A stretch of 62,949 nt of DNA, filler included, from Squatina squatina (taxonomy: Eukaryota), in NCBI GenBank assembly GCA_031763465.1. It is 4 parts of 4 records of this genome, joined end to end, with 100 filler letters (N's around TTAATTAATTAA, not from the genome) between each part and the next. Parts side by side here need not be neighbours in the genome. Positions count along the whole stretch, not along the records: positions 26,722 to 48,981 come from JARFOE010000121.1; 3 more parts are not named here. One strand, 5' to 3'. A model generated the notes under the pieces. That model was not told where the DNA came from. It saw only the letters and a program-made list of their open reading frames with translations, and made no database searches. This document shows, piece by piece, positions 17,166-46,729 of this stretch; the stretch's first letter is position 1; every line of letters begins with the position of its first letter. The translations under genes were made by a program, and so were the position numbers.

Positions 17166-17475
<310 letters not shown>

Positions 17476-40005: not shown

Positions 40006-41139
40006 AAATGCTTATATTCTTGCTTTGCGATTAATATTTGGGAAATAAAGATACCCTACAAGGATATTTAAGTTTTCAAACCAAAGCTTTTTTGTAAACT
40101 TGAGCATCATTATGCTTCATCCAAAACTATATTATTCTTGTTTCCGTTAACAGTATTGGAAGAAAAAATTAGGCATTCTGTAACCACAATAACATTTTTC
40201 CTTTTATTATAGCCAAAGCCTCAATTTATTGAAAGTGGAATCTGACATAAAAGCTTCACAACACTCCTTTTGAGGTTTGCATTTACCTTTTAGTGGGTCC
40301 TGTTCAGCTCTCATGATGTCAATCAGTGAACTCTCCAATGAATGCATGTTTAAAGTGTCATATAATCTAGTTCGATCCTGGAAAAGGAACAGAATTTATC
40401 TTGGTTTGCTGACCGCCTCATTACTGCAGACAAATTATGGCAAACAGTAAAAAAAAGTTACCAGCGGTTACTATCAAGATAGGATGACAGTCAATAGTTC
40501 TTATTTTTCAACAATTTGTAACGAGATTTGGAACGTGTATGATGCATTTTGTGCATGGTACAACTAATTTTGAATTAAAGTTACTTCAAACATTTTCAAG
40601 TAGTGTTATTATTGCAAGAACTGATCCTGCATTATGGAAACATGTACAATTAGAAATTAGTTTTCAACCAAAACTGCTGCAAAAACAAACCAAGCTGCAA
40701 CAATTTAATTTTTTCTTTCTTACAAAAAAAATTAGTTATTTTCCTTCAAGTAATCTAGACTACAGCCCTATGATACAATATCTTAAAGTACAAGATAAAT
40801 GATCAAATATTGACTGAGAAAAAGNNNNNNNNNNNNNNNNNNNNNNNNNNNNNNNNNNNNNNNNNNNNNNNNNNNNNNNNNNNNNNNNNNNNNNNNNNNN
40901 NNNNNNNNNNNNNNNNNNNNNNNNAGTGCACATAGGAAGACAAAAATAGGTGACACACATAATCCAGGGATGGTGTTAAAGTAGCTAAGAATTAAGACAA
41001 AAGATAGCTAGAAGTCTTCTTGGACTGCACTGGACACTAAACATGTCCGCCCAATGCAGAGCAACCATCAACAGAGGCGGCAGAATGTTGAACTACCTAG
41101 CCCAAACAGTCAGAGAAAGTTGGGATTAATCTGGACTAC

Positions 41140-41612
41140 GCTTTGGTTAAACCACACCTTGAGTACTGCGTCCAGTTCTGCTCATTGAGACACATGGAAG
41201 ATATTTAAGCTGTGGAGGCAGTGCAGTGAAAAGGGTGATCCTTAGTGACAAGGTCAGAGGTATGAGGAAAGCCTGGAGAAACCTGGGCTCTTCATTCCAG
41301 AAAGGAGGCATCTGAAAGGTGGCCTTATGGATGGATACAAGATAGTTAAGGAAATGGAAAAGATAAATCTGGAAAGTTACTTTAAATTAAATGGCCAGAG
41401 TAGGTAATGGGACACAGGTTCAAACCAATAAAAGGCAAATTTAGAACTAAACTGATGTCAGGATTTTTTTTCTTTCCAGTGAACAATGTATGGAATAAAC
41501 TTCCAGGAAGAGCAGTGGAAGTGAAAATCCTGGAACCCTGAAGAAACAATTGAATGCTGCAATAGGAAGACTTTAGGTGGCTCAACTGAGAATGGCTTTC
41601 CTCCTTTGTAAT
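41140..41612 (+). mobile_element. Decayed CR1 LINE 3' fragment
   Basis: LVKPHLEYCVQFC.. followed by ..LEKPGLF..VNNVWNKLPGRAVE, the CR1 C-terminus. Confidence 0.8.
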
Positions 41613-41810
41613 TATTGTGATCTTGTGACCCAGCCTTGCCAGTGGCTCTCCAACTGCAGCTATCTACTCTCATTCCGTTTCCTAGACTATATGGCTGTAC
41701 AACACAATAAATAAATAAGTAGAATCGAACCGGAGTAACGGTACTTTTGGCCTATGTTGATGTTCACAGTCACCAGATTTTTAAAGTCTGAAAAAGATAG
41801 GTGTGTCTCG

Positions 41811-42104
41811 TTATCCTCTGCTACTTCTGGAGAGCTTAGGACTCGCCTGCTGTCCGGATCTCATCCCAAAGGGATCTGTGTCGTTCGCCTCTCTCTCAGG
41901 GTTCCTTCTGCTGTGCATCGTGGTAGGCAACTCGTTTTCTCGAGGCAAAAACATAGAAAGAGGAGGCAATTCTCTGCCGGGGATGAACGGGCGCTTCTCC
42001 AGGCTCAGACTCAACACCTTCTTGTGCCTTGGGGAGTGGTACACGTTATAAAATGTCTGTAACTGCTCCTCTTTGAAATTGCAGTCATCCTCACGGTAGG
42101 TCGT
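41811..42104 (-). CDS. FGF23: FGF23-locus endocrine FGF, exon 3 (294 nt including TAA)
   Basis: Acceptor ccctttttgtag. Reads TTYREDDCNFKEEQLQTFYNVYHSPRHKKVLSLSLEKRPFIPGRELPPLSMFLPRENELP..DTDPFGM..*, aligning to FGF23 (C..F...L...YDVYHSP...VSL..KRAFLPG..PP.SQFL.R.NEIP). Confidence 0.9.
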   Translation of the reverse strand, partial: TTYREDDCNFKEEQLQTFYNVYHSPRHKKVLSLSLEKRPFIPGRELPPLSMFLPRENELPTTMHSRRNPEREANDTDPFGMRSGQQASPKLSRSSRG

Positions 42105-42307
42105 CTACAAAAAGGGAAACAGATTGGAATCAAACACCTCAAAGTTGTGGCATGAACAAATTTCACCCGCTGGATTATCGTCACATATTAATCTAGACTT
42201 CGTTTTAAATTCAGAATCGACGGGGGATGAAGTGGAGTTTCCTCATTGAATATCTTGCTTTGCAAACAGCCTTGCGATTTTTGAGCGAGCAGGTGGTCGA
42301 TACTTAC

Positions 42308-42411
42308 TGAGCCAAAAATGCTGCCCTCAGGGTCCATGCACAAGTATCGCCCTGTCCTCACCCCTCTGATCACCACGTGCCCCGGTTCCACTGCTTTGAT
42401 CTCCAGCAGAG
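42308..42411 (-). CDS. FGF23: FGF23-locus endocrine FGF, exon 2 (104 nt)
   Basis: Acceptor ggttacag, donor gtaagt. Reads (T)LLEIKAVEPGHVVIRGVRTGRYLCMDPEGSIFGS. The 104-nt middle exon is characteristic of FGF genes. Confidence 0.92.
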
Positions 42412-43260
42412 CTGTAACCCAGAAAAAGGCTCTTTAGTTAGACACCGGTAGCGCTCTGTAAAGTACCTGGGGGAACGAGTCAAACAGTTTCCAGGTGGCA
42501 TATTGTTTTCATGCGTTTTATAACGATATTAGAGAGACAAAACAGCGGAATACTGGAAGGAGGGACATGTGCAGGGCTTTGGGGAGAGGACAGGGCTGTG
42601 GGATTAGTCTGGGATTGANNNNNNNNNNNNNNNNNNNNNNNNNNNNNNNNNNNNNNNNNNNNNNNNNNNNNNNNNNNNNNNNNNNNNNNNNNNNNNNNNN
42701 NNNNNNNNNNNNNNNNNNNNNNNNNNNNNNNNNNNNNNNNNNNNNNNNNNNNNNNNNNNNNNNNNNNNNNNNNNNNNNNNNNNNNNNNNNNNNNNNNNNN
42801 NNNNNNNNNNNNNNNNNNNNNNNNNNNNNNNNNNNNNNNNNNNNNNNNNNNNNNNNNNNNNNNNNNNNNNNNNNNNNNNNNNNNNNNNNNNNNNNNNNNN
42901 NNNNNNNNNNNNNNNNNNNNNNNNNNNNNNNNNNNNNNNNNNNNNNTGACCTGCTTTCTGAGCTGAAATTGGATGATCCCAACAAACTTTGGGGAATCAC
43001 ATAGGTCCGTTTGTCAAAGAGGAGGCAAGCTCCGAGGTTCTAGAGAGGGGCCCATCTCTCAGTGATGGTTACAGATTATTTCCAAGTGTTGGTAAAAAAT
43101 GACAACTGTCAAGCAATGATGGATTAAAAGCTCAACAGGTAATAATGGTCTAATGTTGCATCTTTGCGTGTTATAGACCAAAGAAATTAAAAGGACAAAA
43201 GAAAGGAAATCAACATTTAAAAAGTTGTCACGACTTGTCTTTTCAAAAAAGGAAACTTAC

Positions 43261-43492
43261 TGTAAAAGGTCTGGGAGTTTGAGCTGTCAATGCGGCCGTC
43301 AGGGTTGATCTGCAAATGCCTGCTGTTCCCCTCCATGTACAGGTGCTTGAGTCGGATCTGCTGACCCCAGTCCCGCTCCAGTTGGGCTCCTGAATCTGTC
43401 CTAACCAGAGGAGTTGACCTGACCAGTGAAACGCCGAGAAAGACGGCGAGGTGCAGCAGCAGGGAAATCAAGTTGATAAAACTGGCGCCCAT
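43261..43492 (-). CDS. FGF23: FGF23-locus endocrine FGF, exon 1 with signal peptide (232 nt)
   Basis: ATG in good context (gggATGG). Hydrophobic signal peptide MGASFINLISLLLHLAVFLGVSLVRS, then WGQQIRLKHLY..HLQINPDGRIDSSNSQTFY. Phase-1 donor gtaagt. The three exons splice in frame to 630 nt (209 aa). Confidence 0.92.
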
Positions 43493-43580
43493 CCCGAACA
43501 CGAGACCTGGAGCGGGGAGCGGGGAGCTTCTCCTGGAGACACCCGGGATCCTTCTTCCGCCTCCGAACCCATTGCGCTGC

Positions 43581-43610
43581 TTTTAAAGTCAATGCAGCAA
43601 ATGACATCAG
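43581..43610 (-). promoter_or_regulatory. Candidate FGF23 core promoter (TATA-like TTTAAAA and CRE/ATF-like TGATGTCA)
   Basis: TTTAAAA lies about 90 nt upstream of the ATG, with TGACATCA/TGATGTCA at 43602-43609. Motif inspection only. Confidence 0.4.
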
Positions 43611-43772
43611 ACTCACCTTAAACCCCCGGCAAAAAGCCAGTGATGTGACAGCTTTTCACAAAGTTTCTGCACNNNNNNNNNNNNNNNNNNNNNNNNNNNN
43701 NNNNNNNNNNNNNNNNNNNNNNNNNNNNNNNNNNNNNNNNNNNNNNNNNNNNNNNNNNNNNNNNNNNNNNNN

Positions 43773-43993
43773 ACATATCGCTTCTTCAATTTGAGCCAGG
43801 TACGAGGGAGCTGGGTAACCTCATTGACATAATTGGCAACCTCTCTCCATTCAGCTTGCACCTGTGTTTTTGTTGGAGGGTGGCGTTCAGCCTCAAATAG
43901 GGCCACCTTCCGTTGATGTGCCTCCTGTCGCAAGACCTCCAACCCTTCAGCATCAAAGAGAGCAGTGTTGCCCACATCTTTCCGCTGTGCCAT
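43773..43993 (-). CDS. Myb/SANT-like DNA-binding domain ORF (Harbinger-derived, NAIF1/MSANTD-like), 3' end lost in a gap
   Basis: MAQRKDVGNTALFDAEGLEVLRQEAHQRKVALF...EWREVANYVNEVTQLPRTWLKLKKRY fits the pattern F...LE.L......R...LF..W..VA..VN......RTW....K. No stops over 73 codons. Confidence 0.7.
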
Positions 43994-46729
43994 TGTTAAC
44001 AATTAGTCCACTTTTCTCTCACCAACATAACTTCCTCTTTTAGGGGAAGATGGCAGTTCTTTAAGAATTGCAGTGTTCCTGGGTTTTGACCATCCCAGCC
44101 AATTGGGTTATAGGCCAAATCTGCTGGGTAAGCTTTTCCTGTGGCTGTAGTCTCTTCAAAATAGGGGACAGGCCTTATCTTGCACATCCTCTTCAGATAA
44201 TCCTACAAGCACACATTCACCTGGTTTTGTAAAAACTGAGGCAAAACACCTATTAAGCATTTCCTCTTTTCACTGTCATATGCAAGATTCCCCTTCATGT
44301 CCACGTCCTATTAGCCACTCTTTCACTGCCATTTTGCTTCTTATGTGCTTATTTCCCTTTGTTTGGACTGCCAATTTTCCCCTCAATTTTCTTCTGTATT
44401 ATCTCTTCTATAATTACGATGTGCCTCTGCTCTTTTTGCCCTCATCTCTCCCTTATGAATGGATATCCATGTTCCTCTTTAACCAGGGGAAATAAAGCAC
44501 TGCAGTTTCCAAATACTGCTTATGTTTTACATGTTAGGTGAGAACCAAGATGACTGCAGCCCTCTGATAACTGGAAAAAATGGTGTTTAAAAGGGCCCGA
44601 GTCTGTCTAATGGTAGTCCCGAAACTCTACCCAAGTCTGTTTCCAGAAAGTGCAGCTGAAATACACAATTTGAACTGATGACAAACTGAAACCGCTTCCC
44701 GTTGACACAAACTGTGTAATATAACTGACCTAATTTTGCTTTGTATTACAAGGAAAGCATTTATTAAAACTATGTCTGCCATTGGAAGATATACTTGCTA
44801 ACATGCCATGGATGAGAAAGATGACCTATGTAGCTCATACACACCATTCTGCAGGAATTTTCTGGCACTTTAATATTACACAAATCCTCAGCGTTACATT
44901 TACAGGTGGCAGACTAGCCTTTTTTGGATTTACAAATTAATATGATTTTTATTCCTCGACTGGTTTAGCCACATGCAGATTTTGAAATCTATAAAATATG
45001 TACTTTGATCATTCTCTTTAAAGGTTATATATTCCAAAAAGAACCCAGTAAATGAACAACTTGGGCAGCACAGAAAATATTTGTAGAGAAAACTATAGTC
45101 GCACTCAGGCCTAAACCATAAGGAGTTCCTCACTGAGGTGGGTCACACAGTGGTTGAGTGGAAGATCTGCAATCTTTTGGATGTGCGAGCAAGTACTAGA
45201 ATTGTGCATCATCAGGAATACATACTATCCAACACAGTCTGTGCCAATTTAACTGTCAGTTACACATGTAAGGTTGTATTTTTACATTTTAGAAGATTAT
45301 TTTCAAAGCAGTAGGTTTACTTCTTCAAATACAATGTATAACAGTGAGACAGATCATTCTGTATTAAATGACATTGCAAATAACTATTCACTCTGGATCC
45401 TAACTTAGCATTATTTTAAAAAGGTTTTCATTCTTCATTCACCACACTGAAGTGCAGTGGAACATTAAATTTTCCCTTACACTGCAAGACAAATATGTGG
45501 AAAATAATGAATAATGGATTGTGTGACGTAAGAAATATTTCCCTGTGAGCCAACTGAATAAATGAACAATAATGCTACAAATTAATTGCTACTGACTCAC
45601 CGTTTATACTGCCTTTCAAACATTATTTTCCAGTTACGAATCTTAATTAACTTTTGAAGTGATTTGAGTGCAGAGGGTCCTTTACTGTCACTAAATGTAC
45701 CCATGTGAGCCATCACTCCCCTCAGCAGTATCTTCAAAAATCCCATAAATCAAGTATTGAGATTTAAATTCACAGGGTTCGCCTAGGGAATCATGGCAGC
45801 AGTTGAAATTTATAGCCCAACAGAAATATACCTGCACTAATCGCCTCATGATGGGTATGTTAATTTATGCCATTACTATTCGGCTTGCACACTAATGCAG
45901 CATGCATATGTTTCTGACAGCACATTTAACGTTTCGTATTTTGAGTCACAGGACTAAAAAGGTTACGTGAATGTCTCAGTGCTGAAAAAGTTGTACTGGA
46001 TTGAGATGGTCCAATTAGCTGCCATAACTTTAGATAATGAAGGACTCATGGGAAATAAGTTCTAGTTCTATAATTAAATGCCCGTGTGTACACAAATATG
46101 AAAATTACTAGCGCATAATGTAAGTTATCTAAACAAGAAATGGACAGTAATCAATCAGCTTCACAAATCTAATTAATCTCAGGTCAACATCAGTACAGAC
46201 ATGTACAAATGAAGAGTACACAGAAACTAACAATTTTTACATTCTCAGTATGATATACACATTGTAGTCTGGACATTACTGAGGATGTAACTGCACAAAG
46301 CCTTAATGCATTCATATCAAATCCCATACTACTATTTTAGTGGAGGAGTTAACCCATTTCAGCTAAATAGGTCATCACTGTGGCTGAAATTATGGAAAGG
46401 GGAATTTGATACAAGCTCATTAAATCTGCTTGTAATAACATTGCTCAGTAATTTCCAGACTTACAAAAGTAGATTTAACTGTCAGTGTTACAACATATCA
46501 CCAATCACAGTGACAGTACAAATAGTAGCGGCTATGATGCATAGTTCAACTTAAACAGCTATAATTCTAAATGCTTGAGACTCTGATGAAGTGAGGAAAA
46601 AGAGGATCTTCTCTACTTCCATGGGAAACATCACAGTTTTGATTTTTTAATATACTGTCCAAAGGGCACACAAAAAGTGACCATTCAGCATACCACACTC
46701 GCTGTTCAGTGGATATTTGCATTTGTTCA

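What the first reader, a model, noticed from the sequence alone, without database searches (positions are those of the whole stretch)
41811..43492. Complete FGF23-locus gene encoding a short (209 aa) endocrine FGF with mixed FGF19/21/23 features
Seen: three exons (232+104+294 nt) splice in frame to a 209-aa secreted FGF in the CCND2(+)-TIGAR(+)-FGF(-) arrangement. Established: this is the FGF23 position, and human FGF23 is 251 aa. The exon 3 core (VYHSP, KRPFIPG, PPLSMFLPRENELP) is FGF23-like, and the extra N-terminal Cys pair of FGF19 is absent. However, WGQQIRLKHLY and LLEIKAV look like FGF19 (WGDPIRLRHLY, LLEIKAV). Inference: a cartilaginous-fish FGF23 retaining ancestral endocrine-FGF states, in an animal without an osteocyte-rich endoskeleton, so its source tissue and role may differ.
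Basis: partly seen in the sequence, partly recalled or inferred. Interest (0 to 1): 0.7.

Follow-up and report, generated by a model that had tools for sequence, protein, structure and literature searches.

The report
Shark FGF23 with short ancestral tail
This intact, spliced shark gene, filed in databases and in a 2026 survey as a second FGF19, lies at the FGF23 position and is most likely the shark FGF23; it has one Klotho-type tail motif and no R-x-x-R cut site, so it likely shows what the phosphate hormone looked like before bony vertebrates doubled its tail.

Summary
Confirmed: three GT-AG exons give a 209-aa secreted FGF, and relatives' contigs skip both introns in 7 of 8 runs laid. Gene order is cyclin D-TIGAR-FGF-C12orf4, across N gaps. 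A separate FGF19 exists. Trees put the nine chondrichthyan proteins next to bony FGF23 (89/66; core only 94/98), but AU tests do not reject FGF19 or FGF21 placement, so orthology rests mainly on synteny. LLEIKAV is ancestral: it is shared with FGF21 and lampreys and lost in bony FGF23. New here is the tail. It has one DPFGM motif plus a basic S-P-K end, where 5 of 7 bony FGF23s have two DP motifs. The furin position reads H-S-R-R, not R-x-x-R (0 of 9). Likely a single-site alpha-Klotho hormone; binding, tissue and role are untested. NCBI names most orthologues FGF19-like, and PMC13591910 calls the white-shark one fgf19b. The scan's notes held no earlier finding of this gene.

The parts
43261..43492 (-). 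Exon 1 coding part: ATG in strong context (G at -3 and +4), hydrophobic signal-peptide-like residues 4-26, start of the beta-trefoil
   Evidence: splice joint
42308..42411 (-). Exon 2 (104 nt): LLEIKAV, first conserved Cys (C102), FGF23-type Phe110
41811..42104 (-). Exon 3 coding part: second Cys (C120), end of trefoil, linker, tail, TAA
41904..41915 (-). H-S-R-R (residues 176-179) at the position of the FGF23 furin site; dibasic but not R-x-x-R
41862..41876 (-). Single DPFGM Klotho-type motif (residues 189-193), preceded by an N-D-T sequon at 186
41814..41843 (-). Basic distal tail, S-P-K-L (200-203) to the end; FGF23-type S-P-basic, not S-P-S
40925..41810 (-). 3' UTR running at least to the N gap; AU-rich nonamer at about 41718
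43493..43665 (-). Transcribed 5' region with two upstream ATGs (43607, 43572), both out of frame here and overlapping the main start
32489..32944 (+). TIGAR last coding exon (synteny marker; one match in the genome)
28104..28253 (+). Cyclin D last exon (synteny marker; CCND2 by elimination)

Best explanation
The gene is most likely the cartilaginous-fish orthologue of FGF23, and it encodes a predicted secreted hormone that would bind alpha-Klotho through a single tail site. Shown: intact spliced gene, position between TIGAR and C12orf4, one DP motif, basic S-P-K end, no R-x-x-R before the tail. Predicted: signal peptide removed near residue 26, a beta-trefoil over about residues 41-170, and a C102-C120 disulfide. 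Inferred mechanism: DPFGM and the basic residues after it dock in the KL1-KL2 cleft of alpha-Klotho, the core engages FGFR c-isoforms or FGFR4, and signalling in Klotho-bearing epithelia lowers phosphate or calcium uptake. Inferred history: this is the pre-duplication tail. Bony vertebrates doubled the unit, so that repeat 1 kept DPFGM-like letters and repeat 2 kept S-P-R, and turned the basic site into a strict furin motif. The shark hormone would be monovalent and less readily cut by furin. Orthology about 0.9; alpha-Klotho use about 0.65 given orthology.
For: Synteny: cyclin D(+), TIGAR(+), FGF(-), C12orf4/FERRY3(-, PF10154 E=2.5e-16, about 36 kb upstream) on scaffold C121. This matches the recalled human order. 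The FGF19 locus is elsewhere: cyclin D, FGF4 and FGF3 on C73, and an FGF19 exon 2 with 86% identity to horn-shark FGF19 on C640554. Six of the 8 species with a listed orthologue also have a true-FGF19-clade protein listed. Trees: sister to bony FGF23 at 89/66 with outgroup and outside FGF19 (96/90*) and FGF21 (95/95*); 94/98 on the core alone. Seven columns are shared with bony FGF23 only, including F110 (8/8 versus 0/15 and 0/11) and the P1 Arg. Tail is 106-108 aa after the first Cys, as in FGF19/21 (mostly 103-125), against 136-164 in 7 bony FGF23s; bichir and sterlet repeat 1 reads DPFGM. S-P-K in 7 of 9 matches the S-P-R of 6 of 7 bony FGF23s; net charge after the Asp is +3 to +4. Positive charge in the FGF21 tail sites weakens beta-Klotho binding (PMC6056499, section 6). 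Both Klotho genes are present. The model of skate orthologue P0003 has mean pLDDT 81 and best match FGF23, Z 22.8, rmsd 2.2, 136 aligned. 75-94% identity from chimaera to sharks shows strong constraint.
Against: AU tests do not reject grouping with FGF19 (p=0.22; core 0.14) or FGF21 (p=0.24; core 0.29), and neither FGF23 node is starred. Pairwise identity does not favour FGF23: lungfish FGF23 48.7%, Heptranchias FGF19 49.3%, paddlefish FGF21 46.1%. PDB scores are near-tied, FGF23 111.9 versus FGF19 107.5 bits, and fold Z differs by 1.6. Synteny spans unbridged N gaps in one fragmented assembly; FGF6 was not found between the gene and C12orf4 (70-89% N). R-x-x-R is also absent in sterlet and viper FGF23, so its absence is not unique to sharks. 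RR is invariant in 9 of 9 and may still be cut. Two of the 7 FGF23-specific columns also occur in 2 of 3 cyclostomes. One 274-aa lamprey row is long, so short tails are not universal in outgroups. No binding, tissue or physiology data.
Confidence: 0.6

Rival explanations
1. FGF23 orthologue that uses both Klothos, or mainly beta-Klotho, and so covers part of the FGF19/21 metabolic role in cartilaginous fish.
For: Overall layout (short tail, one D-P-F-x-M, then S-P 11 residues on) is that of FGF19/21 (11-15), and D, P, L/F and M are the beta-Klotho site-1 residues. Chondrichthyan FGF19 lacks the S-P-S site: 0 of 17 rows against 80 of 97 bony FGF19/21 rows. No full-length chondrichthyan FGF21 was seen among the listed or named hits, and the white shark has none in PMC13591910 Table S4.
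Against: The third position is Lys, not Ser, and is followed by more Arg, which disfavours beta-Klotho site 2. Frog FGF19s also lack S-P-S, so its loss needs no substitute. The 17 rows include repeats of one species and one low-quality model.
Confidence: 0.2
2. FGF23 orthologue regulated as in mammals: the invariant RR is a working convertase site, and the short tail makes no functional difference.
For: RR is invariant in 9 of 9 at the position of the bony furin site. Either human repeat alone binds alpha-Klotho as well as the native protein (PMC8465397, section 24).
Against: P4 is His, Tyr or another non-Arg residue. The Thr at P2 and the Ser at P1' that tune human cleavage are absent in the window protein (the role of the P1' Ser is recalled).
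Confidence: 0.12
3. A second FGF19 (fgf19b), as NCBI names and PMC13591910 have it, or an FGF21 orthologue.
For: NCBI names among the 8 relatives: FGF19-like 4, FGF19 1, FGF23-like 2, hypothetical 1. The white-shark protein is named fgf19b. AU tests are not significant. 4 FGF19-only and 2 FGF21-only columns. The top ESM Atlas cluster is named FGF19-like.
Against: It lies at the TIGAR/C12orf4 locus. True FGF19 is a separate clade containing its own sharks and chimaera. The shared residues are mostly ancestral. NCBI names are unreliable here: a Pristis FGF19-clade protein is named FGF23-like.
Confidence: 0.08

Closest known systems
FGF23 of bony vertebrates (human 251 aa; lungfish XP_043943046; bichir, sterlet, Amia)
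   Same: Genomic position, three exons, conserved Cys pair, IFGS-type Phe, exon-3 residues, basic site before the tail, DP motif, S-P-basic end; nearest clade in both trees
   Different: About 45-55 aa shorter tail with one DP motif instead of two; no R-x-x-R; shorter linker; ancestral LLEIKAV instead of the derived A[LM]xIK[SA]E
FGF19 and FGF21 (beta-Klotho ligands)
   Same: Length, single-motif tail layout, D-P-F-x-M, exon-2 residues
   Different: Other loci and other clades; S-P-S-F/Y versus S-P-K-L; no basic site in the linker
Carcharodon carcharias LOC121285822, 'fgf19b' in PMC13591910; NCBI 'FGF19-like' models of sharks and rays
   Same: Same gene (orthologue): near-identical to P0004, same tail
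   Different: Named as an FGF19 duplicate; no white-shark fgf23 is listed in that paper's Table S4; tail not discussed in the passages I saw

Membership tests
Endocrine FGF (FGF19/21/23) subfamily | Signal peptide and FGF beta-trefoil | tested here: met
   Hydropathy peak 2.2 over residues 7-23 and none above 1.0 later (no SignalP run); Pfam; model of orthologue P0003, Z 22.8 to FGF23
Endocrine FGF (FGF19/21/23) subfamily | C-terminal D-P-L/F Klotho motif | tested here: met
   DPF in 9 of 9; motif defined in PMC8465397
Endocrine FGF (FGF19/21/23) subfamily | Low heparan-sulfate affinity and Klotho-dependent signalling | not testable with these tools
   Needs binding assays
FGF23 orthology group | Locus CCND2-TIGAR-FGF23-FGF6-C12orf4 (order recalled) | tested here: met
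   Cyclin D, TIGAR and C12orf4 in order and orientation on C121, across gaps; FGF6 not placed
FGF23 orthology group | Clade with bony FGF23 | tested here: inconclusive
   Best tree twice (89/66; 94/98), but alternatives not rejected, p 0.14-0.29
FGF23, bony-vertebrate type | R-x-x-R furin site before the tail | tested here: not met
   0 of 9 chondrichthyans against 5 of 7 bony rows; RR in 9 of 9
FGF23, bony-vertebrate type | Long tail with two DP repeats | tested here: not met
   106-108 aa after the first Cys and one DP, against 136-164 aa and two DP units in 5 of 7
FGF23, bony-vertebrate type | alpha-Klotho dependence and phosphate or calcium control | not testable with these tools
   alpha-Klotho exons are present in the genome
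FGF19 | Locus CCND1-LTO1-FGF19-FGF4-FGF3, and clade | tested here: not met
   That locus is on C73; separate FGF19 exon; outside the FGF19 clade
FGF19/FGF21 | Distal S-P-S beta-Klotho motif | tested here: not met
   S-P-K in 7 of 9, S-P-S in 0 of 9
FGF21 | Clade with FGF21 | tested here: inconclusive
   Outside the clade (95/95*; 91/86), but AU p=0.24 and 0.29

The most novel reading that the evidence does not exclude
Cartilaginous fish keep the ancestral FGF23: one Klotho site, no furin off-switch, able to signal through both alpha- and beta-Klotho. Their FGF19 has lost beta-Klotho site 2 and their FGF21 is truncated or gone. Strict alpha-Klotho specificity, bivalency and furin control would then have arisen together by a tail duplication in the bony-vertebrate stem.
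Probability: 0.2. Interest if true: 0.75.

Novelty: new variant of a known kind. Interest (0 to 1): 0.5.

Why it matters
It would correct an annotation that makes sharks appear to lack FGF23 (no white-shark fgf23 in PMC13591910 Table S4), and put the FGF23-alpha-Klotho pair in jawed fish that lack an osteocyte-rich skeleton. It dates the tail duplication and the strict furin site, the site mutated in human ADHR, to the bony-vertebrate stem. It conflicts with a review's statement that all vertebrate FGF23s have long C termini and only mammals have a second repeat (PMC8465397, section 24, citing a paper I could not read). It offers a natural single-site ligand for testing how alpha- versus beta-Klotho specificity and bivalency evolved. 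The protein itself is already in NCBI under other names, which limits the surprise.

Tried and rejected
FGF6 between the gene and C12orf4: not found in 150 kb upstream, 12-89% N per stretch; uninformative. FGF21 in the genome: none with a coelacanth query (10 candidates scored) or in 7 further stretches checked; none seen among 120 listed of 278 hits; a truncated form could be missed. Expression site: no RNA holder listed on record and tissues are coded. Run X20, from the same study as X5 and X6, covers TIGAR but not FGF exons 1-2; contigs show presence, not absence, so this was not used. No contig bridged the TIGAR-FGF gaps. N-terminal extension as in some NCBI models: rejected for this species, since the upstream ATGs are out of frame. 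Missing FGF19 Cys pair as a marker: rejected. 'Tail is beta-Klotho type because of S-P': dropped once bony FGF23s showed S-P-R. No complex was predicted, as no full-length shark Klotho was in hand and one job cannot compare alpha with beta. Literature: searches FGF23+cartilaginous fish+Klotho, FGF23+FGF19+shark+synteny and FGF23+FGF21+chondrichthy each gave 0. FGF23+shark gave 108 papers, 30 listed, none on sharks by title. 25 listed of 1,053 chondrichthyan papers had no fgf23. Supplements of PMC3964593 and PMC13188829 had no fgf19, fgf23 or klotho hits. The catshark atlas supplement (PMC11979771) was unreadable and may hold tissue data. Suzuki 2020, Kuzina 2019, Chen 2018, Agrawal 2021 and Wu 2008 were not held; their species alignments may bear on the tail claims.

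Full report
Observation. The window is a pack; the finding lies in stretch 26722-48981, which maps to scaffold C121 of G000. Three minus-strand exons, 43492-43261, 42411-42308 and 42104-41811, have GT-AG introns and give 209 aa plus stop; 1 of 4 exon-2 boundary pairs tried was open. Contigs of public runs from related organisms (under 95% identical) skip both introns at or within 3 letters of these joints in 4 of 4 runs and 3 of 4 runs, six coded organisms and studies in all. The runs were picked because they hold this gene and their tissues are coded, so they show splicing, not the site or level of expression. Residues 7-23 are hydrophobic; the ATG has G at -3 and +4; two upstream ATGs are out of frame.

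Relatives. Two homologue searches returned the same 8 proteins, all chondrichthyan, 75-94% identical over the mature region. NCBI names them FGF19-like (4), FGF19 (1), FGF23-like (2) or hypothetical (1). In the supplement of PMC13591910 (I saw main-text passages and supplement passages) the white-shark orthologue LOC121285822 is called fgf19b, and no white-shark fgf23 or fgf21 is listed.

Locus. On C121 the order is cyclin D (+), TIGAR last exon (+; PDB 3dcy, E=1.2e-16; one match in the genome), this FGF (-), then C12orf4/FERRY3 exons (-; PF10154) about 36 kb upstream. The human order CCND2-TIGAR-FGF23-FGF6-C12orf4 is recalled. The genome has two other cyclin D last exons. One, on C73, lies beside FGF4 and FGF3. 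The other, on C56, lies beside a ubiquitin-hydrolase exon and an FRS-like exon (label recalled). The C121 copy is therefore D2 by elimination; PDB gave only D1 and D3 matches. A true FGF19 exon 2 is on small contig C640554 (86% to horn-shark FGF19). The linkage crosses N gaps that no contig bridged, and FGF6 was not placed. A chance join giving this order and these orientations is unlikely; a reference-guided scaffold would reflect another shark's order.

Phylogeny. A 52-row tree (window protein, 8 orthologues, 39 endocrine FGFs hand-picked from the 150 hits and their clusters, 4 outgroups; 203 columns) puts the chondrichthyan clade (100/99*) as sister to bony FGF23 (89/66), outside FGF19 (96/90*) and FGF21 (95/95*). 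A core-only tree (46 rows, 133 columns; 12 long or partial rows and the outgroups dropped, 10 rows added) gives 94/98. AU tests do not reject grouping with FGF19 (p=0.22, 0.14) or FGF21 (0.24, 0.29). Pairwise identities and PDB scores are near-tied. Row labels come; rows tagged 'q' were assigned by sequence. So the trees favour FGF23 and synteny carries the weight.

Mixed features. Against 8 bony FGF23, 15 FGF19 and 11 FGF21 rows, columns conserved in the shark clade fall into 7 shared only with FGF23 (F110, V133, K149, P154, L158, R167, R178), 7 shared with FGF19 and FGF21 but not FGF23, 4 FGF19-only and 2 FGF21-only. Five of the 7 shared 19+21 states also occur in at least 2 of 3 cyclostomes and at least half of the outgroups, so they are ancestral, and bony FGF23 is the derived lineage. 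Two of the FGF23-type states also occur in cyclostomes. The exon-1 motif is partly shared with ray-finned FGF23. The extra FGF19 Cys pair occurs only in mammal-type rows.

Tail. All 9 chondrichthyan proteins end 106-108 aa after the first core Cys and hold one DP motif; 7 near-complete bony FGF23 rows end at 136-164 aa and 5 of them hold two DP units (3 partial or divergent rows set aside). Gar and zebrafish FGF23 in the PMC13591910 supplement also show two. The shark unit combines the DPFGM of bichir and sterlet repeat 1 with the S-P-basic end of repeat 2 (S-P-K in 7 of 9; S-P-R in 6 of 7 bony rows). An internal duplication on the bony stem would leave this pattern (inference). At the furin position the window reads H-S-R-R then N: R-x-x-R is in 0 of 9 chondrichthyans and 5 of 7 bony rows (not sterlet or viper), while RR is in 9 of 9. 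Chondrichthyan FGF19 lacks S-P-S (0 of 17 rows, against 80 of 97 bony FGF19/21 rows; frogs also lack it).

Structure and partners. The skate orthologue P0003 (87% identical) folded with a 37-row alignment gives a confident core (block pLDDT above 90 over residues 41-170) and a low-confidence tail. The best match is FGF23, Z 22.8, rmsd 2.2 over 136 residues; FGF19 has Z 21.2. Exons of alpha-Klotho (C80; 274.6 versus 235.5 bits) and beta-Klotho (C1; 342.9 versus 306.7) are both present.

Mechanism. Shown: gene, splicing in relatives, position, motifs. From literature: D-P-L/F is the common Klotho anchor and either human repeat suffices for alpha-Klotho (PMC8465397, passages and section 24); both FGF21 tail sites are needed for beta-Klotho and positive charge there weakens binding (PMC6056499, passages and section 6). 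Inferred: a secreted single-site alpha-Klotho/FGFR ligand, less furin-sensitive, probably regulating phosphate or calcium. Zebrafish fgf23 is made in the corpuscles of Stannius, not bone (PMC10043431 and PMC5940753, passages). Sharks lack those glands (recalled), so the source is open. Dual Klotho use is not excluded.

Novelty. The protein is in databases, but I found no paper treating it as FGF23 or describing its tail in 9 searches. PMC3038562 (passages) covers only the lamprey gene. Key structural papers were not held. A review says all vertebrate FGF23s have long C termini and only mammals have repeat 2; the sequences here disagree on both points, by motif, not by function. It is filed as an FGF23 orthologue but not as a bony-type FGF23, since two features of that type were tested and not met. 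Verdict: new variant of a known kind; interest 0.5.

Noticed in passing
G000 C56:423247-427057 (L031, L022), about 210 kb from a cyclin D exon at C56:213462: An FGF4/6-type gene matching the white-shark 'fgf6' of PMC13591910 lies beside a third cyclin D and USP/FRS-like exons, not at the FGF23 locus. It may be a retained whole-genome-duplication paralogue misnamed FGF6.
   Followed up: partly
L028 (C398645) and L177 (C1075463): Exons of a third FGF4/6-type gene, FGF6-like by recalled motifs, on two unplaced contigs. Exons 1 and 3 look frameshifted, so the canonical FGF6 may be decaying in this shark; assembly error is not excluded.
   Followed up: partly
P0018, P0199-P0208, P0179: Chondrichthyan FGF19 stops about 8 residues after DPL in most sharks and rays and lacks the S-P-S beta-Klotho site; frog FGF19s also lack it.
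   Followed up: partly
P0009, P0010, P0181, P0039, P0045: Non-mammalian bony FGF23s carry a second DP motif followed by S-P-R, although a review says repeat 2 is mammal-only.
   Followed up: partly
window 43493-43607: An upstream ATG frame is in frame with the gene in several sharks' NCBI models but out of frame here, giving a 68-codon overlapping uORF; relatives differ by indels in this stretch.
   Followed up: partly
P0014, P0021, P0055: Squamate FGF23 rows lack R-x-x-R at the usual site and the first DP motif.
   Followed up: no
window 33678-36100 and 43775-44002: Transposon-like open frames (Harbinger/Myb-SANT-like by recall) between TIGAR and the FGF and just upstream of the FGF; LINE fragments at about 37163-38096.
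   Followed up: no
window 17166-17474 (+), another stretch of the pack: A TPR-like coding exon (TTC9-like by recall), unrelated to this finding.
   Followed up: no
L043-L044 (C121, about 2.20-2.21 Mb): GAIN-domain exons (adhesion GPCR, CELSR-like by recall) follow C12orf4, so the block ends soon after it compared with the recalled human order.
   Followed up: no
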